Shown here: one piece after another, positions 393 to 39,891 of the stretch | Position numbering within the stretch: the stretch's first letter is position 1 | How the letters are laid out: every line of letters begins with the position of its first letter | Source of the DNA: Candidatus Daviesbacteria bacterium GW2011_GWA2_42_7 | GTDB taxonomy: Bacteria; Patescibacteriota; Microgenomatia; Daviesbacterales; UBA10151 | Length of the DNA: 39,972 nucleotides | NCBI GenBank assembly: GCA_000997105.1 | Contig: LCEJ01000006.1 | Coordinates: 1 to 39,972 of the forward strand | Direction: 5' to 3' | Made by a program: the position numbers and the translations under genes | The notes under the pieces: generated by a model | Told to the model about the DNA's origin: nothing | Database searches by the model: none | Seen by the model: only the letters and a program-made list of their open reading frames with translations

Positions 393-418
393 ACTATAAG
401 CTATACCTCATGGCTACA

Positions 419-435
419 GCAAGGCCTGGCCTTGC
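419..435. repeat. 17-nt palindrome GCAAGGCCTGGCCTTGC
   Basis: Perfect inverted repeat. The same unit occurs twice in tandem inside pheT (21899..21938). Confidence 0.7.
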
Positions 436-462
436 AGGGATTAGTTATGCATTTTGGGTATG

Positions 463-497
463 AAAAAGCCCCATGCCATACGGCACATGGCTTCTCT
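463..497 (-). terminator. rho-independent terminator of the 881..1150 / 521..880 two-gene unit
   Basis: The minus strand reads CCATGtGCC-GTAT-GGCATGG followed by GGCTTTTTC, about 25 nt after the stop at 521. Confidence 0.5.
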
Positions 498-6411: not shown

Positions 6412-6548
6412 AGATAAATTTAATAAGGTTGCAGGAATGATCCAAATTTCAGTTCGATTCCCGTTAGGGTATTATGTTATGGGATTAAATTTTAGCAAAA
6501 TTTAACAACCTTCCGAAGCTAAAATGCACGAATTCGATAAAAATCGTC

Positions 6549-6623
<75 letters not shown>

Positions 6624-7096: not shown

Positions 7097-7169
7097 TGCC
7101 ACAGCCAGGAATCGAACCCGGATAAGACGCTCTTCAGGCGCCCGCCTTGACCAACTTGGCAACTGTGGC
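7097..7169 (-). tRNA. trnF: tRNA-Phe (GAA)
   Basis: Hand-folded 73 nt: GCCACAG..GGCGC-CTGAAGA-GCGTC..CCGGG-TTCGATT-CCTGG-CTGTGGC-A. Confidence 0.85.
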
Positions 7170-7203
7170 TCTTCGCTTCGCTCGACGTTCGTCGGGAGAA
7201 GGG

Positions 7204-7277
7204 TGGACCCGAGAGGACTTGAACCTCTGACCTCCTCAGTGTAAATGAGGCGCTCTGACCAACTGAGCTACGAGTCC
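7204..7277 (-). tRNA. trnV: tRNA-Val (TAC)
   Basis: Hand-folded 74 nt: GGACTCG-TA-GCTC..GAGC-G-CCTCA-TTTACAC-TGAGG..AGAGG-TTCAAGT-CCTCT-CGGGTCC-A. Confidence 0.9.
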
Positions 7278-7293
7278 AATTTTACCATACCTG

Positions 7294-7376
7294 TGCCGAA
7301 GAGAGGAGTCGAACCTCCACGAGCTTGCGCCCACAACGTTCTGAACGTTGCATGTCTACCATTCCATCACTTCGGC
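7294..7376 (-). tRNA. trnL: tRNA-Leu (CAG)
   Basis: Hand-folded 83 nt with a long variable arm. Anticodon stem-loop is CAACG-TTCAGAA-CGTTG. Confidence 0.9.
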
Positions 7377-7395
7377 ATGTTTGCCCTTAGTCAAG

Positions 7396-7478
7396 TGCCG
7401 GGAAGAGGACTCGAACCTCCACGCCATTGCTGGCACATACACCTCAAGCATGCCTGTCTACCATTTCAGCATCCCGGC
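7396..7478 (-). tRNA. trnL: tRNA-Leu (GAG)
   Basis: Hand-folded 83 nt with a long variable arm. Anticodon stem-loop is CATGC-TTGAGGT-GTATG. Confidence 0.9.
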
Positions 7479-8099
7479 TTTTTGCCTAGATATTATACCT
7501 AATGCATTCATAATTTTCGAGTGTTTTCTTCCTAAACACAAAATATCTGCATTATAATAAAGCTTATTTAAGAGTAGGACAGAGCTTTTTTTAGCATATT
7601 CCAGAGTAAAAACATTAGCTCGAAAACGTATTTTACCTTTAATTCTATAAAGTTGCTCTACCTGATCACTTAGCCACTCTAGATGTTTCTTGCTAGCTGA
7701 AGTAAAGCTGGTATATAACTGAAAACTGCTTTTCCAGCGCGGGTCAAAATAAGAATATGTATAACCATCACCATCTAAACAACCCCTTAAAAAATCAGCA
7801 AAAAATCTACTTGGTATTTTAAGCTCCCCAATAGTTTTAGATTTAGCAGACGTCAGACCAATACTGAGCAAGAATCTGTAGAGTTTTACGTTACTAAACT
7901 GCACAAAGTAATAGCGTTTCTGCGAGTAGCCTGAAGATTTTGATCCTATTTTACTTGTAATCCCAACTGCATGTAAGAAATTTTTGACTTGATCTAGATC
8001 CTTAGAGGTAAAATCTAAATGTCTTCCATCTTTCGACAGACATCCATCGGTAGCAATTAACCCCACAGCATAAGCGAATTCAGCGGTCCACACCACCAC
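7458..8099 (-). CDS. LAGLIDADG family homing endonuclease (double-motif)
   Basis: Two LAGLIDADG-type motifs are present (AYAVGLIATDGCL and FLRGCLDGDGY). The start is GTG. The last 7 codons (AGMLKW*) are the first 21 nt of tRNA-Leu(GAG). Confidence 0.85.
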   Translation of the reverse strand: MVVWTAEFAYAVGLIATDGCLSKDGRHLDFTSKDLDQVKNFLHAVGITSKIGSKSSGYSQKRYYFVQFSNVKLYRFLLSIGLTSAKSKTIGELKIPSRFFADFLRGCLDGDGYTYSYFDPRWKSSFQLYTSFTSASKKHLEWLSDQVEQLYRIKGKIRFRANVFTLEYAKKSSVLLLNKLYYNADILCLGRKHSKIMNALGIISRQKAGMLKW

Positions 8100-8112
8100 C
8101 TCATTATATCAT

Positions 8113-8150
8113 CCCTCAAGTTAATAGCGTCTACCATTAAATTTTCCGGC
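8113..8150 (-). pseudogene. degenerate 5' half of a tRNA-Leu(GAG)-like gene
   Basis: Compare GCCGGAAAATTTAATGGTAGACGCTATTAACTTGAGGG with the intact GCCGGGATGCTGAAATGGTAGACAGGCATGCTTGAGGT. Acceptor strand matches 6/7, AATGGTAGAC 10/10 and CTTGAGG 7/7. Similarity ends after the anticodon loop. Confidence 0.5.
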
Positions 8151-8189
8151 ATGATCTTAACCTACCTATTTTACCAGTATTTGATCCAG

Positions 8190-8218
8190 TTGACAAAAGA
8201 TAAAAATAACCCTAATAT
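8190..8218 (+). promoter_or_regulatory. sigma70-like promoter TTGACA-17 nt-TAATAT
   Basis: Read directly: TTGACAaaagataaaaataacccTAATAT. Confidence 0.5.
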
Positions 8219-8248
8219 TTTTGGCACTACTCTTTGGAAGACGGACCA

Positions 8249-8833
8249 ATGAGAAATATAAATTTTGCCCTAACCTGGTACACCACAACTATTTGCACGC
8301 TTGTATTTTCAATCCTTCTTTTAACTCATCTATCCTTTACCCGTCCGACAATTACACCTATAGGACAAAGCTACCAAAGCTACCGCGCACTGCCTACAAA
8401 CCTCACAACATTAACTACCCAAGAAGTAACTATCGGCAAAACCGATGCCCGTACATTGGTTATCTACCACTTCTTCAAACAAAACAATGCCCCCTTATCC
8501 CAAGCAGCCGAGAAATTTATAGAAGTGGCTGACAAATACAACCTGGATTTTAGGCTTTTACCTGCTATTGCCATGCAGGAGTCAAACGGGGGAAAGATTA
8601 TGCCCAACAACTCCTTTAACCCCTTCGGTTACGGAATCTATGGGGGTAAGGTTTTAAGGTTTACCTCTTTTGAAGAGGCAATCGAACGGGTGGGGCAGGG
8701 GCTTAAAGAAGATTATATAGATAAAGGCTTAAAAACACCTGACCAAATTATGGCAAAATATACCCCTCCTTCAATTGAAAAAGGAGGCCCCTGGGCAATC
8801 GGTGTTTCCTCTTTTATGGAAGAGCTCCACTAG
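8249..8833 (+). CDS. secreted/membrane-anchored protein with SLT-like (lysozyme-fold) E-S motif; paralog of 9047..9634
   Basis: The ATG at 8249 gives MRNINFALTWYTTTICTLVFSILL, an N-terminal TM or signal segment. DFRLLPAIAMQESNGG resembles the catalytic region of soluble lytic transglycosylases. The functional call is tentative. Confidence 0.55.
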   Translation: MRNINFALTWYTTTICTLVFSILLLTHLSFTRPTITPIGQSYQSYRALPTNLTTLTTQEVTIGKTDARTLVIYHFFKQNNAPLSQAAEKFIEVADKYNLDFRLLPAIAMQESNGGKIMPNNSFNPFGYGIYGGKVLRFTSFEEAIERVGQGLKEDYIDKGLKTPDQIMAKYTPPSIEKGGPWAIGVSSFMEELH

Positions 8834-8852
8834 ATTTAAACCCCTAAACTTT

Positions 8853-8873
8853 ACCCTGAGTTTACCGAAGGGT
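8853..8873. repeat. hairpin ACCCT-GAGTTTACCGA-AGGGT (REP-like)
   Basis: A near-identical unit GACCCTGAGTTTATCGAAGGGTC occurs at 31332..31354. Confidence 0.55.
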
Positions 8874-8922
8874 TAATACTACCTTCAACTGGCCCTGAGG
8901 GGCCGCTCAGGCCCTCGAACGG

Positions 8923-9023
8923 GAGCAAGGTCGAAGTATTAATACTGAGCAAGGTCGAAGTATTAATACTGAGCAAGGTCGAAGTATTAATACTGAGCAA
9001 GGTCGAAGTATTAATACTGAGCC
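8923..9023. repeat. perfect 24-bp tandem repeat, 4.2 copies (GAGCAAGGTCGAAGTATTAATACT)
   Basis: Units at 8923, 8947, 8971 and 8995, plus a partial fifth (GAGCC). There are no spacers, so this is not a CRISPR array. Confidence 0.95.
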
Positions 9024-9046
9024 AGGATTTTTTTGTGGTGAAAAAT

Positions 9047-10115: not shown

Positions 10116-11402
10116 ATGGGGTATAAGCTTTTAGCCATCATTTTAGGCAAGGTTATTATTTATCTTACAAAGATCCTTAAAATCGGTGGGGGATCAGCAG
10201 CTCCCGGCTATTATGCACTTAAGTTTTACCCCAATTTAGTGGCTGAACTAACTAAAGATATCCCTAAAACTGTAGTCATCACAGGCACAAATGGTAAAAC
10301 CACCACCTCCCGCATGCTTTACTACTTTGCCAGGGAGCAGGGTTTAAAAGTTATCCGTAACTCCACCGGCTCGAATCTTGAACGCGGTATCGCCTCAACC
10401 CTAATTTCGAACTCACACATGTCAAGTGGGAAGCTAAAAAATGTGGACCTGGCCATTTGGGAACTGGATGAGGCTGCTTTTAACCAACTTGTCCCTGAGA
10501 AAATTAAGCCCGACATCATAATTTTTCTTAATGTTTTCAGGGACCAGCTGGACCGTTACGGCGAGATAGATTCTATTCTAAGAGGCTGGAAAAAGACTCT
10601 GGAAAAGATAGGCAAAGACACAACTGTGCTTATAAACGGAGATGACCAGAACCTGCTCGGGTTAAAAAACAGCATCAAATGCAAGGTGGAAACTTTCGGG
10701 ATAGAGGATTATAAGATAAAAGGGGAAGGGACTGTTAAAAAAATAGGGGAAGAGAAACTCGATTTAGAAGCCAAAAATGTCAATTTACTTGGGCTTTCAG
10801 GCACCAATTTTGATATCCAGGACAGACACGAAACCTGGTCCTTTTCCATACCCTTACCGGGGATTTACCATGTTTATGATTTTTTGGCAGCCTATATCAC
10901 CTCACAGAAACTCGGGATAGGGAGGCAAGCTGTAATTTCTGCTCTTGACCATTACTCCCCGGCCTTTGGCAGGGCAGAGAAACTGGATTTTGGGTATATC
11001 TTATTAATTAAAAATCCGACAGGGGCAACCCAGGTCTTGGAGACTCTAAAAGGGGAATTAAAAGTTGGGGACAGGCTGCTTTTTGCTTTAAATGATAATA
11101 TAGCCGACGGGACGGATGTTTCCTGGATCTGGGACAGTGAGTTTGAAATGCTGTCGGCTGTCAGCAGTCAGCTGTCAGCTATCTGTTCAGGCACCCGTGC
11201 AGAAGATATGGCTTTAAGGCTAAAATATGCAGGCTTGGAGCCTGAACAGATAATAATCCAGAGAGACCTTAAAAAGGCCCTCAAACAGGCTAGAGAGGGC
11301 CTAGGAGGCCGGCTCTTCATCTTGCCCACTTATACAGCACTCCTGAGATTGCAAAAGATTTTAGCCAGGGAAGGAACTAAAGAGCACTATTGGAAGGAGT
11401 AA
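10116..11402 (+). CDS. murT: lipid II isoglutaminyl synthase subunit MurT (Mur ligase family)
   Basis: P-loop VVITGTNGKTTTSRM is present, with Mur-ligase central-domain layout and a DUF1727-like C-terminus (DGTDVSWIWDSEFE..GTRAEDMALRLKYAG). The gene is adjacent to gatD. Confidence 0.85.
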   Translation: MGYKLLAIILGKVIIYLTKILKIGGGSAAPGYYALKFYPNLVAELTKDIPKTVVITGTNGKTTTSRMLYYFAREQGLKVIRNSTGSNLERGIASTLISNSHMSSGKLKNVDLAIWELDEAAFNQLVPEKIKPDIIIFLNVFRDQLDRYGEIDSILRGWKKTLEKIGKDTTVLINGDDQNLLGLKNSIKCKVETFGIEDYKIKGEGTVKKIGEEKLDLEAKNVNLLGLSGTNFDIQDRHETWSFSIPLPGIYHVYDFLAAYITSQKLGIGRQAVISALDHYSPAFGRAEKLDFGYILLIKNPTGATQVLETLKGELKVGDRLLFALNDNIADGTDVSWIWDSEFEMLSAVSSQLSAICSGTRAEDMALRLKYAGLEPEQIIIQRDLKKALKQAREGLGGRLFILPTYTALLRLQKILAREGTKEHYWKE

Positions 11403-11538
11403 AATAAAATATAATTTCTAATTCCTAATTAACCTAATTTACCTAAATAATGACCAAATGTCAGAATGTCTAATTTAGAAACTGGTAATTGGGATTTCTT
11501 TAGAAATTAGAGTACTTAGGAATTAGGTCAATTTAACT
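11403..11538. repeat. CTAATT-word inverted-repeat element; miniature derivative of the four-helix-bundle gene cassette
   Basis: Left arm is ..TTCTAATTCCTAATTAACCTAATTTACCTAAATA. The core ATGACCAAATGTCAGAATGTCTAATTTAGAAACTGG resembles the start of 39535..39891. Right arm is ..TAGAAATTAGAGTACTTAGGAATTAGGTCAATT. It fills the whole murT-gatD spacer. Confidence 0.6.
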
Positions 11539-12324
11539 ATGAAACTAATAATAGGCCATCTTTACCCTGAATTAATGAATATCTATGGTGACATGGGCAA
11601 TATTATTGCTTTACAAAAACGCGCTGAATGGAGAGGGATAGAAGTCGTTATCAAAAAGTTTTCGATCGAAAACAAATTGAAACAAGGGAAAGTTGACCTG
11701 TTTTTCTTTGGCGGAGGACAGGACCAGGCACAGGAATTAGTAGCTGGGGACTTAGTAGCTAGTAGTAAGGGTAAAATTATTAAGAAAGAAGTGGAAAAGG
11801 GGGTACCGTTGCTGGCTATTTGTGGAGGGTACCAGCTTTTAGGGGAATATTACCAACCTCACAATGCGACAAAGCTGACAGGTATCGGCGTTTTTCCGGC
11901 TTACACAGTGGCAGGAGATAATCGTATGATCGGCAACATAGTAGTTCAGAGTTCATGGTTCACGGTTCATGGACAAGAGGAAACGTCTATGAACAATGAA
12001 CTACCAGCGAAGCATACTATGAACTATCTTGTTGGTTTTGAAAACCACTCCGGTAAAACTTTTCTTAAGGAAGGTGCCCAGCCTCTGGGCCAAGTAGTCA
12101 AAGGTTTTGGTAACAACGGGGAAGACCAAACCGAAGGATGTATCTACAAAAACGCTGTCGGGTCTTACATGCATGGCTCGCTTTTGCCTAAAAACCCGGG
12201 ACTTGCCGACTGGCTGCTTACTAAAGCCTTAGAGCTAAAATATGGCAAGGAGATTGCACTGGAGCCTCTGGATAACACCCTGGAAAACCTAGCCCACAAA
12301 GCAGCTGTGCTAAAATACTCTTGA
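11539..12324 (+). CDS. gatD: lipid II isoglutaminyl synthase glutaminase subunit GatD (CobQ-type amidotransferase)
   Basis: MKLIIGHLYPELMNIYGDMGNIIAL.. and ..LAICGGYQLLG.. match the remembered S. aureus GatD. The protein carries an insertion of about 20 aa (see 11943..12025). Confidence 0.85.
   Translation: MKLIIGHLYPELMNIYGDMGNIIALQKRAEWRGIEVVIKKFSIENKLKQGKVDLFFFGGGQDQAQELVAGDLVASSKGKIIKKEVEKGVPLLAICGGYQLLGEYYQPHNATKLTGIGVFPAYTVAGDNRMIGNIVVQSSWFTVHGQEETSMNNELPAKHTMNYLVGFENHSGKTFLKEGAQPLGQVVKGFGNNGEDQTEGCIYKNAVGSYMHGSLLPKNPGLADWLLTKALELKYGKEIALEPLDNTLENLAHKAAVLKYS
11943..12025 (+). repeat. GTTCAT-word palindromic element inserted in frame in gatD
   Basis: AGTTCAGAGTTCATGGTTCACGGTTCATGGACAAGAGGAAACGTCTATGAACAATGAACTACC..ACTATGAACT is homologous to 37288..37365 and 33380..33446. 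It encodes SSWFTVHGQEETSMNNELPAKHTMNY. Confidence 0.7.
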
Positions 12325-20933: not shown

Positions 20934-22679
20934 ATGAAAGTATCAATAACTTGGTTAAAAGAATTAGTTGATTTAAAAGTTCCCGTAGAGGAGGTTGTAC
21001 GCCTTTTACCCCTTCACACCATTGGCACAAAAGAAGTAACAGAAGATTTTATCGAACTGGATATGAAAGGCTACAACCGAGCCGACCTTTTATCCATGAG
21101 GGGAGTAGCTTATGAGATAGCTGCCATTACGGATTCTGAAGTTACCTTTACTGAACCTTATTCATCCACCTTTGCCTGGACCGGCAAGGACTTACCGGAA
21201 GCACAGGTGAAAGTGGAAAACACCCAGCTTGCCCCACTGTATTGTATTGCCAAAATCAGTGGGTTAAAGGTTGGCCCCTCATCACCAGAGTGGGTTAAAA
21301 AACTTGAGGATTGCGGTATAAGGTCAATAAATAACGTGGCTGATGTAACCAACTTGGTAATGCTGGAATACGGCCAGCCTTCCCATGCTTTTGACGCCGC
21401 AGTCGTACAAGATGAATCTATAATAGTCCGAACTGCCAAAGAAGGGGAAACCCTGCTGACTTTGGATAATAAAATAAGACAGTTGTCTTCTGCTGACCTG
21501 CTGATTACCGACTCACTGAAACCGCTGGGACTGGCTGGTGTCATGGGAGGCAAGGACTCTGAGGTTACAGATTCTACAACCTCTATACTTTTAGAAGTGG
21601 CCATTTTTGACCCCGGAACCATCCGAAAAACAGCCCAAAGACATAACCTGCCATCAGAAGCAAGCAAGAGATTCCAGCACGGTTTAACCAAGGTTAGGGC
21701 TTTACAGGCTTTAGACGCGTTAATACGTATGTACCAGGGATTGGGAGGTAAGCTCGAGGCAATTTCCATCACAGACAACTTGGAGGAAGAAACCAAAAAT
21801 GTACCCTTAACCCAACAAAAGGTAAATTCCCTAATTGGCATTGAAATCAAACCCGAGGATACTATCTCCTACCTTGAAAAACTCCGCTTCCACGCCTCCG
21901 CAAGGCCTGGCCTTGCAGCGCAAGGCCTGGCCTTGCAAGCATGGGAGGTGACTATCCCTTATTGGAGGATGGATATTGGGATAGAGGAAGATTTAATTGA
22001 GGAAGTGGCCAGGATGTACGGCTATGAGAAAATTCCGGCTAAAGAACTTGGGGGAGCGTTGCCGGAAAAAATTGACCAGTCCCTGTTTGACTTAATCTAT
22101 AGCCTCAAAACTAGACTGGCAGAGCTGGGGCTGACCGAAGTTCAAACTTATTCTTTTTATTCCACCAAAGTAATTGAAAATTTAAAATTAGAAATTGAAA
22201 ATTTAATTCGTGTTGCCAATCCCATCTCTTCCGAAACCGAGTATTTAAGAACCCATCTTTGGCCAAATTTGGTGGAAACCGTGGCTAAAAATATCCGGCA
22301 AGGGTTTGAGGATATAGCTATTTTTGAAATTGGCAAGACTTATCAGACAACTAAATCAGGGGAGATCCAGGAAGAATACAAGCTGGCCATTGCCTTACTT
22401 AACGATACAGACAATCCTACCCAGGAGCTTTATCAAATTTTCCAAAGCCTAGGCTCACACCTCCGAGGTTTGAACCTAGCAACTTCTCATCTTAACCTCG
22501 GAGGTGAGTCCAAGAGACAAGAGCTTTTCCATCCAACCAGGCATGCTGTTTTAGAAAAAGACGGCCAACAAATCGGCAAAATTGCCGAGGTTCACCCAAG
22601 AATTACCGACAAGTTAGGAATAGACAAAAGGGTGGCGATACTGGAAATACTGCTTACAAGCTTACTGTTACCCCGATAG
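20934..22679 (+). CDS. pheT: phenylalanine--tRNA ligase beta subunit (short form, 581 aa)
   Basis: MKVSITWLKELVDL.. is the canonical PheT start, and B3/4 and B5 regions are recognisable. The protein lacks the long N- and C-terminal accessory domains of the E. coli enzyme. It contains the tandem palindrome insertion at 21899..21938. Confidence 0.88.
   Translation: MKVSITWLKELVDLKVPVEEVVRLLPLHTIGTKEVTEDFIELDMKGYNRADLLSMRGVAYEIAAITDSEVTFTEPYSSTFAWTGKDLPEAQVKVENTQLAPLYCIAKISGLKVGPSSPEWVKKLEDCGIRSINNVADVTNLVMLEYGQPSHAFDAAVVQDESIIVRTAKEGETLLTLDNKIRQLSSADLLITDSLKPLGLAGVMGGKDSEVTDSTTSILLEVAIFDPGTIRKTAQRHNLPSEASKRFQHGLTKVRALQALDALIRMYQGLGGKLEAISITDNLEEETKNVPLTQQKVNSLIGIEIKPEDTISYLEKLRFHASARPGLAAQGLALQAWEVTIPYWRMDIGIEEDLIEEVARMYGYEKIPAKELGGALPEKIDQSLFDLIYSLKTRLAELGLTEVQTYSFYSTKVIENLKLEIENLIRVANPISSETEYLRTHLWPNLVETVAKNIRQGFEDIAIFEIGKTYQTTKSGEIQEEYKLAIALLNDTDNPTQELYQIFQSLGSHLRGLNLATSHLNLGGESKRQELFHPTRHAVLEKDGQQIGKIAEVHPRITDKLGIDKRVAILEILLTSLLLPR
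21899..21938 (+). repeat. two tandem copies of the 20-nt unit CGCAAGGCCTGGCCTTGCA(G/A) inside pheT
   Basis: The same palindrome is intergenic at 419..435. It is translated as ..ARPGLAAQGLALQ.. Confidence 0.75.
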
Positions 22680-32118: not shown

Positions 32119-33637
<1,519 letters not shown>

Positions 33638-33727
33638 AATATTTAGATGCTAGATATTAGATAGCTAGATAGTTAGTTTTAAAAACATAGTGTTTTTTAA
33701 CTATTATCTAGTATCTAGTTAACTAGT
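33638..33727. repeat. CTAGAT-word imperfect palindrome in the atpG-atpD spacer
   Basis: The arms TTAGATGCTAGATATTAGATAGCTAGATAGTTAG and CTATTATCTAGTATCTAGTTAACTAG flank a central A/T hairpin. Confidence 0.55.
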
Positions 33728-33738
33728 CCCATTCTTTC

Positions 33739-34632: not shown

Positions 34633-34744
34633 ATACTTGTCAAATTAACCTAATTGACCTAATTTCTAATTACCTAATTAAATCCCAATGTACCAATTTA
34701 GAAATTTGGCATTGGTACTTATTTAGAGTTTAGAAATTAGAAAT
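34633..34744. repeat. CTAATT-word inverted-repeat element; miniature derivative of the four-helix-bundle cassette
   Basis: Left arm is AAATTAACCTAATTGACCTAATTTCTAATTACCTAATTAA. Core is ATCCCAATGTACCAATTTAGAAATTTGGCATTGG. Right arm is ..TTTAGAGTTTAGAAATTAGAAATTT. It fills the whole atpA-atpG spacer. Confidence 0.6.
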
Positions 34745-36367
34745 TTATTTAACTCCTCTCTTAAATGTTTCTACAAACTTTTTCGTGACACTCTCAAGCT
34801 TCTTGGTTAATTTTTCATCCAGTTCCTTTTTTTCGGCAATTTCTTTTAAAATTTCCTTCTCTTTAAGCTTTAAGTGGGATATAAATTTATTCTCAAAGTC
34901 CCTAACCTTTTCCACCGGTAGCTCATCCAGATACCCTTGAGTCACTGCCCAAAGGATAGCGATCTGTTCTTCAACAGGCACCGGTTGGTAAGGAGGCTGT
35001 TTTAAAATCTCTGTAATCCTTTTTCCTCTTTCAATTTGGGCCTTGGTACCGGGATCTAAATCAGAAGAAAACTGGGCAAAAGCAGCCAACTCCCTAAATT
35101 GGGCCAGGTCCAGCCTAAGCTTTCCGGCTACACCTTTCATAGCCTTATTTTGCGCCGATCCGCCGACCCGGGAAACGGAAAGCCCGACATTTAGTGCCGG
35201 CCTCATCCCGGCAAAGAAAAGGTCGGATTCAAGGTATATTTGCCCGTCGGTAATAGAAATAACATTGGTAGGGATATAGGCCGAAACATCACCGGCCTGG
35301 GTTTCAATAATCGGAAGCGAAGTTAGTGACCCCCCGCCAAAATCTTTAAGACTGCCATCAGGTAGTCGCAAGCTCTGCTTACTCATCCGGGCCGACCTTT
35401 CCAAAAGCCGGGAGTGGAGGTAAAAAACATCTCCCGGGTAAGCCTCACGTCCGGAAGGCCTTCGGAGTAAAAGTGAAACCTGTCGGTAAGCCCAAGCGTG
35501 CTTGGATAAATCGTCGTAGATAATCAAGGCGTCTTTTCCCTGGTCCATAAAATATTCACCAATCGCAGTGCCGGAGTAGGGGGCAAGGTATTGCATAGGT
35601 GCCGGGTCAGAAGCAGAGGCAGATACCACAATGGTATGGTCCATTGCCCCATGCTCTTCCAATTTAGCCACCAGCTGGGCAATCTTGGAGGATTTTTGGC
35701 CAATAGCTACATAGATGCAAATTACCGGAGAGCTTTCAGTCTTCAGACTCGCTTCGCTGTCAGATTTCAGACTTTTATCTTTTTTGTCTGACGACTGACG
35801 ACTGACGACTGACGACTTCCCTTGGTTAATAATCGTATCAACCGCAATGGTAGTTTTTCCGGTATTTCTATCACCAATAATAAGCTCTCTTTGCCCGCGT
35901 CCTATCGGGATCATGGCATCAATTGCTTTAATCCCGGTCTGCAAGGGGACTGAGACGCTCTGGCGGGTAATAACTCCGGAGGCCACTTTTTCTACAGGGT
36001 AAGACTGCTTTGTTTTAATCGGTCCTTTGCCATCAATCGGTTTCCCTAAGGCATCAACCACCCGGCCTAACATCTCCTCACCAACCGGGATTTGTAATAA
36101 CTTGCCGGTAGTTTTTACCTCGTCACCCTCGCGGATCCCGGTAAAATCCCCTAGGATAATTGCCCCCACGCTGTATTGTTCTAAATTCAGGGCCAAACCG
36201 AAAACCCCACCGGGGAATTCAATAAGTTCTGATGCCTGGACCTCCGATAGCCCTTCAATCTTGGCAATACCGTCACCAACCTCAACCACTTTACCCACAT
36301 TCTGCTTTGCAGCTTTGGTTTTTAAGTTAAAAATATCACTCTCTATTGATTTAATTAAATCGCTCAT
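34745..36367 (-). CDS. atpA: F1 ATP synthase alpha subunit
   Basis: Walker A GDRNTGKT is present, and the protein is collinear with the remembered E. coli AtpA apart from an insertion of about 28 aa between ..TIINQ and ..CIYVAIGQK. Confidence 0.95.
35737..35818 (-). repeat. GTC(G/T)TCAG-word palindromic element inserted in frame in atpA
   Basis: The plus strand reads CAGTCTTCAGACTCGCTTCGCTGTCAGATTTCAGAC-TTTTATCTTTTTT-GTCTGACGACTGACGACTGACGACTGACGAC. It encodes ..[30 protein letters not shown]... Confidence 0.65.
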
Positions 36368-37287: not shown

Positions 37288-37362
37288 TTAGTTATGAGTT
37301 CACAGTTCATAGTTCATGGACAGAGAAAGTTCTTCTATGAACCATGAACCAATAACTATGAA

Positions 37363-37365
<3 letters not shown>
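37288..37365. repeat. GTTCAT-word palindromic element, intergenic copy (atpE-atpF spacer)
   Basis: Sequence is ..GAGTTCACAGTTCATAGTTCATGGACAGAGAAAGTTCTTCTATGAACCATGAACCAATAACTATGAACT. The arms are reverse complements of each other with a few mismatches. Confidence 0.7.
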
Positions 37366-38318
<953 letters not shown>

Positions 38319-38395: not shown

Positions 38396-39499
38396 ATGAC
38401 CAATGACGAAAAATTTAATCTAATCACCAGAAACCTGGAAGAAACCCTGACCCCTGAGGAATTAAAGTCCTTAATAGAATCCGGAACCCCTTTAAAACAC
38501 TACATAGGTTTCGAAATTTCCGGAAAAGTCCATTTAGGAACCGGGCTTTACGCTATGCTTAAGATTAGGGACTTGCAAAAGGCTGGGGTAGAGACAACCG
38601 TCCTTTTAGCCGACTGGCATACTTGGCTTAATAAAAAGCTTGATGGCACTTTAGGGACCGCTTCAAGACTGGGAAGGGAGTATTTTCAGGAAGGGTTAAA
38701 AGCAGCCGCCCTTTGTGCCGGGGCAGACATTGAAAAAATCGAGTTTGTCTTAGGCAGTGAACACTACCAAAAGTCAGGCTTGGGTTATTGGTCAGCTGTA
38801 ATTAAAGTCTCCAAGGCTACAACCCTAGCCCGGATGATGCGTTCAACCACCATCATGGGACGCAAGGAGGGAGAAATCTCCGATGCAGCCATGTTGATTT
38901 ACCCCCCGATGCAGGCAGCCGATATCTTTACCTTGGGAGTCAATCTTTCCCATGCAGGCACAGACCAGAGAAATGTCCATGTTGTCGCCCGGGACACTGC
39001 TTCCGAAACAGGTTTCCCTAAGCCCATGGTTATCCATCACCATTTACTCCAGGGATTACTCAAACCACCTGTCTGGCCAATTCCTGAAGGTGACAGGGAA
39101 GCGGCGGTTGAGGCAATTAAAATGAGCAAATCCAAACCGGACAGTGCAATATTTATCCATGACACTCCCGAAGAAATAAGAAGAAAATTGAGTAACGCCT
39201 TTTGCCCCGAGGGGGAAGTGAATTTCAATCCTATTTTGGATTGGGTAAAACATTTAATCTTTTGCGACCAAGATTCTAAATTGGAAATTAAGAGGGATGA
39301 AAAGTGGGGAGGGAATTTGACCTACACGTTCTATGGAGACTTAGAAAAAGACTATGCAGAGAAAAAATTGCACCCTCAGGACTTAAAAAACGCTGTGGCC
39401 GAGTGGTTAATCATCAAACTTGAGCCGGCCAGGAAATACTTTGAAGACCCAAAAAGAAAAGCAGCTTTAGAAGAGATTGAGAAATTAACATCGAGATAA
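38396..39499 (+). CDS. tyrS: tyrosine--tRNA ligase, archaeal/eukaryotic-type (no bacterial C-terminal S4-like domain)
   Basis: The protein is collinear with the remembered M. jannaschii TyrRS (..YIGFE.SGK.HLG.., ..YP.MQ..DI.., KMSKS, ..LHP.DLKNAVAE.LI..LEP.R). The start is set at ATG 38396, 6 nt after TATAAT (38384..38389). Confidence 0.88.
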   Translation: MTNDEKFNLITRNLEETLTPEELKSLIESGTPLKHYIGFEISGKVHLGTGLYAMLKIRDLQKAGVETTVLLADWHTWLNKKLDGTLGTASRLGREYFQEGLKAAALCAGADIEKIEFVLGSEHYQKSGLGYWSAVIKVSKATTLARMMRSTTIMGRKEGEISDAAMLIYPPMQAADIFTLGVNLSHAGTDQRNVHVVARDTASETGFPKPMVIHHHLLQGLLKPPVWPIPEGDREAAVEAIKMSKSKPDSAIFIHDTPEEIRRKLSNAFCPEGEVNFNPILDWVKHLIFCDQDSKLEIKRDEKWGGNLTYTFYGDLEKDYAEKKLHPQDLKNAVAEWLIIKLEPARKYFEDPKRKAALEEIEKLTSR

Positions 39500-39534
39500 T
39501 TACTAATTAACCTAATTACTAATTGACCTAATTA
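39500..39534 (+). repeat. CTAATT-word left arm of the four-helix-bundle gene cassette
   Basis: TTACTAATTAACCTAATTACTAATTGACCTAATTA shares ATTAACCTAATTGACCTAATT-type words with 11415..11440 and 34652..34690. Confidence 0.6.
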
Positions 39535-39891
39535 ATGACTAATGGAGAAAATGACAAAAAGTTTGATTTAGAAGAAAGAACAGCGAAATTTGGTGAAAAT
39601 ATAATTAAATTCTGTCAGAAAGTTCCTAGAGGCCCAATAACAGACCCTTTAATTACACAATTAGTTAAATGTGGAACCAGTACCGGTGCAAATTATTGCG
39701 AAGCAGACGATGCTGAAAGCAGACAAGATTTTAGGCATAAAATTGGAATTTGCAAAAAGGAATCAAGAGAGTCAAAGCACTTTGTTAGGATGATTGTAAT
39801 GGCTTTGCCAGAACTTAAAGAAGAAGCCAAACCATTATGGCAAGAAGCCAAGGAGCTAAACTTGATATTTAACTCCTACATTCAAGGTTGA
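39535..39891 (+). CDS. four-helix-bundle protein (23S rRNA intervening-sequence protein family)
   Basis: ..FDLEERTAKFGENIIKFCQKVP.. and ..QLVKCGTSTGANYCEADDAESRQDFRHKIGICKKESRESKHF.. match the remembered family pattern (GANY.EA......DF..K......E..E). Confidence 0.8.
   Translation: MTNGENDKKFDLEERTAKFGENIIKFCQKVPRGPITDPLITQLVKCGTSTGANYCEADDAESRQDFRHKIGICKKESRESKHFVRMIVMALPELKEEAKPLWQEAKELNLIFNSYIQG

What the first reader, a model, noticed from the sequence alone, without database searches (positions are those of the whole stretch)
35737..35818. Separate hairpin element (GTCGTCAG / GTCTTCAG words) inserted in frame in atpA, adding about 28 aa next to the nucleotide-binding domain
Between ..AVDTIINQ and ..CIYVAIGQK, the remembered E. 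coli AtpA has about 6 residues. This protein has 34 ([34 protein letters not shown]). The underlying DNA is an imperfect palindrome built from 7-8-nt words. One arm is GTCGTCAGTCGTCAGTCGTCAGTCGTCAGAC, followed by an A/T loop and then GTCTGAAATCTGACAGCGAAGCGAGTCTGAAGAC (gene orientation). This is the same architecture as the other hairpin families here but with a different word. The result is a Ser/Lys/Asp-rich low-complexity loop in a highly conserved enzyme.
Basis: partly seen in the sequence, partly recalled or inferred. Interest (0 to 1): 0.7.

Follow-up and report, generated by a model that had tools for sequence, protein, structure and literature searches.

The report
Optional hairpin insert inside ATP synthase gene
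A 96-base hairpin-forming DNA element sits in frame in the ATP synthase alpha gene of a groundwater Daviesbacteria (CPR) genome, and the same element lies at the same codon position in two other, deeply diverged atpA genes whose close relatives lack it, so it looks like small mobile DNA rather than local repeat slippage.

Summary
atpA (34745-36367, minus strand) carries a 96-nt, 32-codon segment (35726-35821). It consists of (GTCGTCA)x4.3, an A-rich loop and a degenerate complementary arm. It folds better than shuffles (RNA z = -4.25).

- **It is an insertion.** The closest relatives (94% aa identity outside the insert) have only 'KD' there, and solved F1 alpha structures align up to both edges.
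- **It is real.** The same protein is encoded on at least 18 independently assembled contigs.
- **It is shared laterally.** The two arms are 74-75/75 nt identical in three atpA genes. Their flanks are only 76-79% identical (window vs L001) or 49-54% identical (either vs L095, whose AtpA is 37% identical in protein). Close relatives of all three lack it. This excludes independent local slippage and argues strongly against plain vertical descent.
- **It is probably translated.** Only one of its six reading frames is open, and that is the frame in use. AlphaFold places it as a low-confidence loop between the Walker-A helix and the next strand.
- **The site is a hot spot.** About 30 of 120 Daviesbacteria AtpA proteins carry unrelated inserts there, and about half of the long ones I could fold are strong hairpins.
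- **The architecture is common here.** Heptamer-word hairpins are frequent in this genome, including in-frame copies in atpD and a GatD-like gene.

No transposase was identified. I read it as an RPE-like selfish insert with an unusual same-site distribution.

The parts
34745..36367 (-). atpA (F1 ATP synthase alpha subunit, 540 aa), the host gene
   Evidence: ORF. It is 100% identical to P0001, Cand. Daviesbacteria GW2011_GWA1_42_6. Best PDB hits are F1 alpha chains, E down to 6e-212. Foldseek TM-score (normalised by target length) is 0.86-0.96 across the listed F1 alpha chains.
35726..35821 (-). The in-frame insert: 96 nt, residues G183-P214 ([32 protein letters not shown]). It stands where the nearest relatives have 'KD'.
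   Evidence: Alignment A1. Loop lengths across 80 loci. HMMER alignments to solved structures stop at residues 183-186 and resume at 213-214. pLDDT by 10-residue block is 65/54/45 for residues 181-210 in a model with mean pLDDT 88.5.
35787..35816 (-). Left arm in gene orientation: (GTCGTCA)x4 plus GA, a perfect heptamer tandem array
   Evidence: TRF gives period 7, 4.3 copies, 100% matches. The arm is 30/30 nt identical in L001 and L095.
35775..35786 (-). A-rich loop (CAAAAAAGATAA). This is the variable part of the element: 12 nt here, 10 nt in L001, absent in L095.
35730..35774 (-). Right arm: AAGTCTGAAATCTGACAGCGAAGCGAGTCTGAAGACTGAAAGCTC, a degenerate complement of the heptamer array. It encodes [14 protein letters not shown].
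   Evidence: Inverted repeats I1-I4. It is 44/45 nt identical to L001 and to L095, and L001 vs L095 is 45/45.
35348..35380 (-). Second, smaller in-frame insert in the same gene ([11 protein letters not shown], residues 330-340). Among the 26 aligned Daviesbacteria AtpA sequences only this one has it, and it is also absent from L095 and from the solved structures. Its DNA contains two short stem-loops.
   Evidence: Only the window sequence has it in alignment A1. It is a gap against PDB chains and L095. Fold. Predicted as a beta-hairpin, strands 330-334 and 340-344.
33373..33447 (-). Context, same architecture class: an in-frame hairpin insert in atpD (word AGTTCAT/ATGAACT). AtpD is 476 aa here against 455 aa in the closest relative.
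   Evidence: Fold z = -4.2.
37291..37366 (.). Context: intergenic atpE-atpF hairpin of the same AGTTCAT word family. The closest relative, L082, has a 14-nt spacer here.
11937..12022 (+). Context: third copy of the AGTTCAT-word hairpin, lying inside the GATase_3 (GatD-like) ORF 11539-12324
   Evidence: Fold z = -4.7.
34643..34745 (.). Context: intergenic atpA-atpG hairpin of the CCTAATT-word family, which also occurs at 11412-11528 and 39497-39535. The closest relative has a 1-nt spacer here.
33639..33728 (.). Context: intergenic atpG-atpD hairpin (word TAGATAG/CTATCTA)

Best explanation
The segment is a small, optional, laterally spreading hairpin element lodged in a permissive surface loop of AtpA. 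It is not a product of local slippage and not an ancestral part of the enzyme.

**Anatomy (shown).**
- The left arm is four perfect GTCGTCA heptamers.
- The loop is short and variable.
- The 45-nt right arm is a degenerate complement of the left arm.
- Only one of the six reading frames is open, and that is the frame joined to atpA.

**Distribution (shown).**
- The same arms (74-75 of 75 nt identical) occupy the homologous codon position, just after the '..INQ' that ends the Walker-A helix, in three atpA genes.
- Those genes are saturated at synonymous sites (window vs L001) or only 37% identical in protein (L095).
- The closest relatives of all three lack the element.
- A degenerate relative of the element sits at the same place in a fourth lineage (L083).

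**Class (shown).**
- The genome carries many hairpins whose arms are tandem 7-nt words.
- At least one word family (AGTTCAT) is dispersed over intergenic and coding sites.
- The closest relative has none of these hairpins in its atp operon.

**How it most likely works (inferred).**
- The element is selfish or neutral DNA that moves between co-occurring Daviesbacteria. It survives only where it lands in frame in a loop that tolerates extra residues.
- It is read through by the ribosome and adds a disordered Ser/Lys/Asp/Glu-rich loop on the alpha subunit.
- The junction-plus-loop lengths differ between the three copies (17, 11 and 8 nt, all equal to 2 mod 3). Changing the junction and the loop one at a time inside atpA would pass through a frameshifted gene. 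I infer that the three copies arose from separate insertion events drawing on a variable donor pool.

**Transfer mechanism (not identified).** Candidates are a single-strand, hairpin-dependent transposition, or DNA uptake followed by short-patch or microhomology recombination at the conserved TTAA(T/C)CAAGG junction.
For: - **Real and inserted:**
- **Reproducible:** 12 cluster members carry the identical insert, and the protein is found on at least 18 contigs.
- **Identity island:** the arms are 30/30 and 44-45/45 nt identical. Flanks are 115/146 and 109/144 (window vs L001) and 73-81 of 146-150 (vs L095) (alignments).
- **Saturated background:** third-position identity at identical residues is 0.44-0.55 across the gene.
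- **Host divergence:** AtpA of L095 is 37% identical to the window protein.
- **Patchy distribution:** in the neighbour-joining tree of 120 insert-masked AtpA sequences, P0001 nests among KDVI-only sequences and P0007 is sister to a KDVI sequence. P0134 is the only one of the roughly 50 L095-type AtpA sequences that the loop pattern could read to carry the insert, and its closest readable relatives have 6-residue loops.
- **Reading frame:** only one of six frames is open.
- **Disordered loop:**
- **Hot spot with other hairpins:** L002 z = -5.2, L011 z = -3.3, L084 z = -4.5, L085 z = -4.7.
- **Class enrichment:** six period-7 arrays against 0.07 in shuffles. Across 1.04 Mb of mostly CPR loci there are 76 period-7 arrays against 12 of period 8.
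- **Dispersed family:** three AGTTCAT copies align with each other.
- **Clean relative:** L082 lacks every hairpin in the operon.
Against: - No other copy of this particular element was seen outside atpA in any held locus. A donor pool is therefore inferred, not observed.
- No transposase or homing enzyme is encoded in the window.
- No target-site duplication or terminal inverted repeat distinct from the stem is visible.
- In the main Daviesbacteria clade the insert replaces 'KD' rather than sitting cleanly beside it.
- The phylogeny is a neighbour-joining tree of one protein, not a species tree.
- Translation of the insert is inferred from the frame only.
- I could not exclude that the two AtpA types coexist in one genome, although the MAG accessions seen differ.
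- Perfectly conserved arms alongside variable loops could also reflect nucleotide-level selection.
Confidence: 0.6

Rival explanations
1. Local origin: replication slippage expanded a 7-nt unit in situ, and a template switch created the inverted arm. Nothing moved.
For: The left arm is a perfect tandem array. No other copy of the word exists in the window. (GTCGTCA)n arrays, often with inverted (TGACGAC)n partners, arise in many unrelated high-GC organisms, so the word itself recurs convergently.
Against: The 45-nt degenerate right arm is non-repetitive, yet it is 44-45/45 nt identical in three atpA genes with diverged flanks. Independent slippage cannot reproduce it. Slippage may well have built the ancestral element, but it does not explain this copy.
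Confidence: 0.04
2. An ancient, vertically inherited functional loop. It was inserted once in an early Daviesbacteria AtpA, kept by selection on the peptide or on the RNA structure, and lost many times.
For: A diverged version exists at the same site in L083. Many inserts at the site begin with G-[RKQ] and end with P/S-V-I. The arms are conserved while the loops vary, as expected under constraint.
Against: - It requires dozens of losses that each restore exactly 'KD'.
- It requires near-perfect nucleotide conservation, including mismatched stem positions and third codon positions, while the rest of the gene is saturated.
- It cannot explain presence in the 37%-identical L095-type AtpA, whose closest readable relatives lack it.
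Confidence: 0.1
3. A REP/REPIN-like or IS200/IS605-derived element mobilised in trans by a Y1 (HUH) tyrosine transposase acting on single-stranded hairpins. Target choice would be set by a short sequence next to the hairpin foot.
For: Y1_Tnp genes lie beside the atp operon in L001 (two copies) and L087. They match NCBIfam REP-associated tyrosine transposase at E = 4.5e-15 to 1.2e-9. Intragenic REPs are documented in other phyla (PMC3733652). The heptamer contains CGTC, the head motif of one REP superfamily.
Against: - The matches are below the curated cutoff (38-56 bits against 80).
- Those genes are flanked by short TTCCCAC/GTGGGAA hairpins, not by heptamer hairpins.
- No Y1 gene is present in the window.
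- The element is 90-96 nt with 30-45-nt arms, not a 20-40-bp REP with an 8-9-bp stem.
- A 4-5-nt target would not by itself give the same codon three times.
Confidence: 0.15
4. The hairpin is kept for a cis-acting role in the atp operon mRNA, such as a processing or stability signal or a ribosome pause. The added peptide would be a by-product.
For: The RNA fold is strong. Hairpins also sit in three intergenic spacers of the same operon. L001 has hairpins in the same spacers with other words.
Against: The closest relative runs the same operon with no hairpins at all. There is no Rfam match. With three near-identical copies there is no covariation to test. The frame constraint shows that the peptide must at least be tolerated.
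Confidence: 0.08

Closest known systems
Rickettsia palindromic elements (RPE), described as selfish DNA in protein-coding genes (from my own knowledge of Ogata et al. 2000; RPE-4 and RPE-6 are equated with CGTC-type REPs in PMC3733652)
   Same: Both are short palindromic repeats inserted in frame into conserved housekeeping genes. Both are translated as hydrophilic extra loops at tolerated positions. Both also occur in intergenic DNA, and neither encodes an enzyme.
   Different: - The arms here are built from tandem heptamers, and there is no known sequence relation to RPEs.
- The host is a CPR bacterium.
- The same element occupies the same codon in genes that are not vertically related. RPE copies shared between species are orthologous by descent.
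- Only one copy was seen per sampled locus.
Intragenic REPs of the GTAG/CGTC superfamilies (Di Nocera et al. 2013, PMC3733652)
   Same: Both are hairpin repeats found between unidirectional genes and occasionally inside ORFs, where they encode 20-30 aa as dimers. The paper notes REPs at about the same site of recB in two Xanthomonas species.
   Different: REPs are 20-40 bp with 8-9-bp stems, 4-5-nt loops, an unpaired tetranucleotide head and a CCA tail. None of these features fits the 90-96-nt element.
Optional mobile GC clusters of yeast mitochondrial DNA, including in-frame clusters in var1 (PMC4478555, seen as a search hit but not read; var1 mobility is from my own knowledge), and repetitive hairpin elements of sponge mitochondria (PMC2800124, also a search hit only)
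   Same: These are protein-less palindromic mini-elements that are optional between strains. They land in both coding and intergenic DNA and appear to spread by conversion-like events.
   Different: They occur in organelle genomes, are GC-rich in an AT-rich background, and have no heptamer tandem structure.
Short tandemly repeated heptamers of bacteria (cyanobacterial STRR, from my own knowledge; TAACTGA repeats of Beggiatoaceae, Cyanobacteria and Bacteroidetes, PMC4679880)
   Same: Both show period-7 tandem arrays that are over-represented in intergenic DNA, and a phylogenetic distribution that suggests horizontal spread with no known mechanism.
   Different: The TAACTGA arrays are described as almost entirely direct repeats (169 direct sets against one indirect) lying mostly upstream of start codons. 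Here an array is paired with an inverted degenerate copy to form a long hairpin, and the copy of interest is inside a gene.
Translational-bypass 'byp' inserts of Magnusiomyces mitochondria and T4 gene 60 (from my own knowledge)
   Same: Both are small mobile inserts with secondary structure inside conserved protein genes.
   Different: Byps break the reading frame and are skipped by the ribosome. Here every copy is in frame and free of stop codons in the one open frame, so read-through is the simpler reading.

Membership tests
Rickettsia palindromic elements (RPE) | Palindromic, hairpin-forming repeat | tested here: met
   RNA z = -4.25 and DNA z = -2.8
Rickettsia palindromic elements (RPE) | In-frame insertion in a conserved ORF, absent from orthologues | tested here: met
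Rickettsia palindromic elements (RPE) | Many dispersed copies of the same element within one genome | tested here: inconclusive
   There is one copy in the 40-kb window and one in each carrier locus. The whole genome is not available. A sister word family (AGTTCAT) has 3 copies in the window.
Rickettsia palindromic elements (RPE) | Sequence similarity to the RPE-1 to RPE-8 consensus sequences | not tested
   No RPE sequences were on hand. The heptamer architecture makes similarity unlikely.
REP (GTAG/CGTC-tagged) elements | 20-40 bp, 8-9-bp stem, 4-5-nt loop, unpaired GTAG or CGTC head, short tail (PMC3733652) | tested here: not met
   The element is 90-96 nt with 30-nt and 45-nt arms and a 0-12-nt loop. 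CGTC occurs only as part of the repeated word.
REP (GTAG/CGTC-tagged) elements | Cognate RAYT gene flanked by the same repeat | tested here: not met
   There is no Y1 gene in the window. The RAYT-like genes of L001 and L087 are flanked by TTCCCAC/GTGGGAA hairpins.
MITE | Terminal inverted repeats plus a target-site duplication, with a parent IS element | tested here: not met
   No duplication is present at the three junctions and no parent IS was seen. The whole element is a single hairpin.
Simple heptamer microsatellite (slippage product) | Tandem array whose presence and length are explained by local slippage alone | tested here: not met
   The array is present, but the linked non-repetitive arm is shared across genomes. 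Copy number is invariant across the 12 cluster members examined.
Intein, intron or bypass element | Removed from the RNA or the protein; carries splicing motifs or breaks the frame | tested here: not met
   At 32 aa it is too short for an intein. There is no Rfam intron match. It is always in frame with no stop codon. Actual removal is not testable here.

The most novel reading that the evidence does not exclude
The element is a protein-less, site-specific 'homing' hairpin. On this reading, a roughly 75-nt pair of arms recognises, or is recognised at, the DNA that encodes the end of the Walker-A helix of F1 alpha. That would let it enter atpA genes as different as 37% protein identity at the same codon and in the one workable frame. 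It would be one of several hairpin families competing for the same loop across Daviesbacteria and other CPR lineages. This would be a new way for selfish DNA to home into a universal gene without an intein, an intron or an encoded endonuclease.
Probability: 0.3. Interest if true: 0.8.

Novelty: new variant of a known kind. Interest (0 to 1): 0.62.

Why it matters
In-frame palindromic 'selfish DNA' in housekeeping genes is known from Rickettsia and a few other bacteria, and from organelles. I found no published description of it in CPR/Patescibacteria in four of the five literature searches I ran; the fifth covered mitochondria. These bacteria have tiny genomes and are usually thought of as streamlined.

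- **A tractable mobility case.** The same mini-element sits at the same codon of a universal enzyme gene in lineages that share no recent ancestry at that locus, and the empty site is preserved in sister lineages. Few examples show so clearly that such elements move between genomes and are filtered by protein structure.
- **Annotation and phylogeny.** AtpA lengths in this clade range from 495 to 559 aa, largely because of optional inserts and C-terminal tails. Alignment-based phylogenies and MAG quality checks need to take this into account.
- **Testability.** If the same-site pattern reflects true target specificity, the mechanism could be tested with synthetic DNA.

Tried and rejected
- **Peptide search for the insert in other proteins.** A concatenated 61-aa query found 25 word-sharing candidates, none scoring E <= 10, probably because of composition-bias correction.
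- **RAYT link.** Y1 transposase genes beside the atp operon in two relatives looked promising. Their flanking hairpins belong to a different, short type, and the window has no such gene.
- **Recombination tract.** I looked for raised identity around the insert between the window and L001. Third-position identity in the adjacent 30-codon blocks is 0.60-0.70 against 0.55 gene-wide. The high-identity block therefore ends at the element, and I rejected simple homologous transfer of a gene segment.
- **First AlphaFold run.** A 26-sequence alignment gave a poor model (pLDDT 57). It was redone with 115 sequences (pLDDT 88.5).
- **Local-fold census.** A generic scan at -20 kcal/mol returned 118 and 148 hairpins on the two strands and was uninformative. 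I replaced it with a period-specific tandem-array census. In that census the 'inverted partner' criterion was too lenient to be used as a statistic, so only the array count is used.
- **A second shared insert.** The NPSTSSGQG insert shared by P0006 and P0077 is 25/27 nt identical, but by my own calculation this is not significant on its own (p about 0.08; sequence data).
- **Other readings considered and dropped.** An integron attC-like site (the end motifs do not fit on inspection), a bypass element (always in frame), and an intein or intron (wrong size, no motifs).
Full report
**1. What is there**

The window comes from Candidatus Daviesbacteria bacterium GW2011_GWA1_42_6, a CPR/Microgenomates bacterium from groundwater. 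Its AtpA is 100% identical to the named protein P0001.

atpA is the ORF at 34745-36367 on the minus strand. It lies in an atpB-E-F-H-A-G-D operon.

Between the conserved '..AVDTIINQ' and '[11 protein letters not shown]' the gene carries 96 nt (35726-35821). In gene orientation the segment reads GGGAA, then (GTCGTCA)x4, GAC, an A-rich loop, and a 45-nt arm that is a degenerate complement of the heptamer array.

- Tandem Repeats Finder gives period 7, 4.3 copies, 100% matches.
- The arms pair.
- The region folds significantly better than dinucleotide-preserving shuffles. As RNA it reaches -34.3 kcal/mol with z = -4.25. As DNA z = -2.8.

**2. It is an insertion, and it is real**

Across 66 readable loci from many phyla the loop at this site is 6 residues (KGQDVI-like). 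In most Daviesbacteria it is 4 residues (KDVI).

The nearest relatives of the window protein are 94% identical outside the insert and have exactly KDVI. HMMER alignments to solved F1 alpha chains stop at residues 183-186 and resume at 213-214.

Twelve other members of the 90% cluster carry the identical insert, ten of them full length at 540 aa. The exact protein is encoded on at least 18 contigs from NCBI, JGI and ENA assemblies. It is therefore not an assembly artefact, and no copy-number variation of the heptamer array is seen among these sequences.

**3. Where it sits in the protein**

AlphaFold with a 115-sequence alignment gives a confident model (mean pLDDT 88.5, pTM 0.87). Its best PDB matches are F1 alpha subunits.

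The insert lies between helix 171-184, which follows the P-loop, and strand 216-224. Block pLDDT values there are 65, 54 and 45, against above 85 in the block on either side.

I read it as a flexible loop. From general knowledge of F1 structures this loop is surface-exposed and naturally longer in mitochondria. I saw a 19-residue, non-hairpin loop in Akkermansia.

**4. The decisive comparison**

The same element is present in two other genomes at the homologous position.

| Comparison | Left arm | Right arm | Upstream flank (142-nt segments, gapped alignment) | Downstream flank (144-nt segments, gapped alignment) |
|---|---|---|---|---|
| Window vs L001 | 30/30 | 44/45 | 115/146 | 109/144 |
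| Window vs L095 | 30/30 | 44/45 | 73/146 | 81/149 |
| L001 vs L095 | 30/30 | 45/45 | 79/150 | 74/147 |

- **L001** is a Daviesbacteria MAG from a different aquifer, GCA_016184225.1. Its AtpA is 78% identical to the window protein.
- **L095** is a Rifle Daviesbacteria MAG. It has a divergent type of atp operon, and its AtpA is only 37% identical to the window protein.
- Third-position identity at identical residues is 0.44-0.55 across atpA for every pair tested. Synonymous sites are therefore saturated, and the identity island ends at the borders of the element.
- In a neighbour-joining tree of 120 insert-masked AtpA sequences, the window protein nests among KDVI-only sequences. P0007 (L001) is sister to a KDVI sequence in a distant clade.
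- In the L095-type family, P0134 is the only carrier among the roughly 50 of 120 sequences that my loop pattern could read. Its closest readable relatives have a 6-residue loop.
- A degenerate relative of the element (GTCGTCA GACATCA GACGTCA GTCATCA ...) sits at the same site in a further lineage, L083.

Independent slippage cannot reproduce a 45-nt non-repetitive arm. Vertical descent would need dozens of exact losses plus near-perfect nucleotide conservation against a saturated background. Lateral spread of the element itself is the economical reading.

**5. Reading-frame logic**

Only one of the six frames of the element is free of stop codons, and that is the frame fused to atpA in all three copies. 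The heptamer array is open in all three forward frames. The right arm is open in only one.

The three copies differ in the few bases before the array (5, 1 and 8 nt) and in the loop (12, 10 and 0 nt). The sums are 17, 11 and 8, all equal to 2 mod 3.

Changing the junction and the loop one at a time inside atpA would pass through a frameshifted gene. I therefore infer that these differences predate each insertion, which points to separate insertion events from a variable donor pool. This step is inference.

**6. The site is a hot spot and the architecture is a class**

About 30 of 120 Daviesbacteria AtpA proteins carry inserts of 5-30 residues at this loop. They fall into several unrelated sequence families, and each family is itself scattered over the tree.

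I could read the DNA of fourteen CPR inserts. Seven fold significantly:
- the window copy, L001 and L002 (13-bp stem CACCTCGGGGGTG, z = -5.2);
- L011, L084 and L085 (z between -3.3 and -4.7);
- L095, which gives a stable stem (-28.8 kcal/mol) although no shuffle z-score was computed for it.

L083, L086, L087, L054 and the short inserts (L003, L004, L017) do not fold significantly. The 27-nt L208/L209 insert folds only weakly.

L087 uses the AGTTCA word, which in the window occurs in atpD, in a GatD-like gene and between atpE and atpF.

The window holds six period-7 arrays (at least 3 copies, at most 1 mismatch) against 0.07 in dinucleotide shuffles. Each lies next to reverse-complement copies of its word. 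That word test was too lenient to use as a statistic. Inverted arms or significant folds were seen separately for five of the six; the 11150 array has only an adjacent inverted repeat.

Over 1.04 Mb of mostly CPR loci, period 7 is far commoner (76 arrays) than period 8 (12) or 9 (5).

The closest relative, L082, has spacers of 1-15 nt in the four gaps inspected and an AtpD of 455 aa. The window has hairpin-bearing spacers of 77-189 nt and an AtpD of 476 aa. The window lineage has therefore gained hairpins throughout the operon.

atpD carries hairpin inserts at one common site in the window, L001 and L084 (z = -4.2, -3.5, -4.5). The L084 atpD stem is nearly the same as the L002 atpA stem, so a hairpin family can appear in different genes.

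**7. Mechanism of movement**

The mechanism is not identified.

- Pfam scans of 30 window ORFs found no transposase.
- RAYT-like Y1 transposase genes lie beside the atp operon in L001 and L087. They score below the NCBIfam cutoff and are flanked by short TTCCCAC/GTGGGAA hairpins, not heptamer hairpins.
- No target-site duplication is visible.
- An 11-nt identity (TTAATCAAGGT) spans the upstream junction in L001 and L095. It could serve microhomology-based recombination after DNA uptake, but that is speculation.
- Rfam has no family for any of the hairpins.

**8. Comparison with what is known**

- **Closest in behaviour:** Rickettsia palindromic elements and the intragenic REPs catalogued by Di Nocera et al. 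(PMC3733652).
- **Closest for optional, protein-less mobility:** mitochondrial GC clusters and hairpin elements (literature hits).
- **Not a REP:** the element fails the structural definition of REPs, and no RAYT link was found.
- **Not a MITE:** it lacks MITE hallmarks.

What is new:
- the host group;
- the heptamer-tandem architecture of the arms;
- recurrence of an identical element at one codon of atpA across genes that are not related by recent descent.

I classify it as a new variant of a known kind.

**9. Verdict**

Confidence that this is a laterally spreading selfish or neutral in-frame hairpin insert is about 0.6. The remaining weight lies mainly on an ancient constrained loop and on specific enzyme-driven versions of mobility. 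Whether the same-site pattern reflects true target specificity or only strong structural filtering is the open and interesting question.

Noticed in passing
window 35348-35380 (-): A second in-frame insert in the same atpA ([11 protein letters not shown], residues 330-340). Among the 26 aligned Daviesbacteria AtpA sequences only this one has it, and it is also absent from L095 and from the solved structures. The DNA forms two small stem-loops, and AlphaFold predicts a beta-hairpin.
   Followed up: partly
window 33373-33447 (-), 11937-12022 (+), 37291-37366: Three alignable copies of one hairpin family (word AGTTCAT/ATGAACT). One is in frame in atpD, one lies inside a GATase_3 (GatD-like) gene, and one is intergenic between atpE and atpF. 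This is direct evidence of a dispersed hairpin family that enters coding regions.
   Followed up: partly
window 11150-11252 (+): A (GCTGTCA)x4 heptamer array followed by a 16-nt inverted repeat, inside the MurT-like ORF 10116-11402. I did not check whether it is an insert relative to orthologues.
   Followed up: no
window 8923-9026: A 24-nt unit (GAGCAAGGTCGAAGTATTAATACT) repeated 4.3 times at 98% identity. Each unit holds the palindrome AGTATTAATACT. The array overlaps short ORFs that have no Pfam match.
   Followed up: no
window 402-463 and 21899-21937: The GC-rich palindrome GCAAGGCCTGGCCTTGC appears at two distant places. The second is a 20-nt x2 tandem repeat inside the pheT-like ORF. It may be another small palindromic family.
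   Followed up: no
window 7458-8099 (-) with tRNAs at 7097-7478: An ORF with a LAGLIDADG_3 domain, resembling a free-standing homing endonuclease, abuts a cluster of four tRNA genes.
   Followed up: no
L001 7240-7911 and 14542-15111; L087 1377-2084: RAYT-like Y1 transposase genes flank the atp operon in two relatives. They are bordered by short hairpins such as GTATTCCCAC-TTGACGA-GTGGGAATAC, a REP-like family distinct from the heptamer hairpins.
   Followed up: partly
L084 atpD (7566-8966) and L002 atpA (6547-6612): Nearly the same GC-rich hairpin stem (CACCTCCGAGGTG vs CACCTCGGGGGTG) is inserted in frame in different genes of different Daviesbacteria genomes.
   Followed up: no
L133 1014-1071, L123 110-197, L132, L125, L101/L113 (metagenome contigs, GC 0.6-0.7): (GTCGTCA)n arrays paired with inverted (TGACGAC)n arrays occur in unrelated high-GC organisms. 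Heptamer-tandem hairpins with this very word therefore arise widely outside CPR.
   Followed up: no
L095 2140-6153: A divergent second type of F1 operon in Daviesbacteria and other Patescibacteria. Its alpha subunit has GAARSGKT in place of GDRNTGKT and an N-terminal extension, and NCBI annotates it as a hypothetical protein.
   Followed up: no
window 27256-27669 (-): The ORF I took to be atpC (epsilon), judged from its translation only, lies about 4.4 kb from the rest of the operon and is separated from it by unrelated genes. L001 shows a similar separation, and there the detached gene has ATP-synt_DE Pfam hits.
   Followed up: no
P0009, P0011, P0014, P0020, P0025, P0040, P0049, P0054 (alignment A1, columns 570-603): Several Daviesbacteria AtpA proteins carry lysine-rich C-terminal tails of 15-40 residues that the window protein lacks. 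This is another source of length variation in the family.
   Followed up: no
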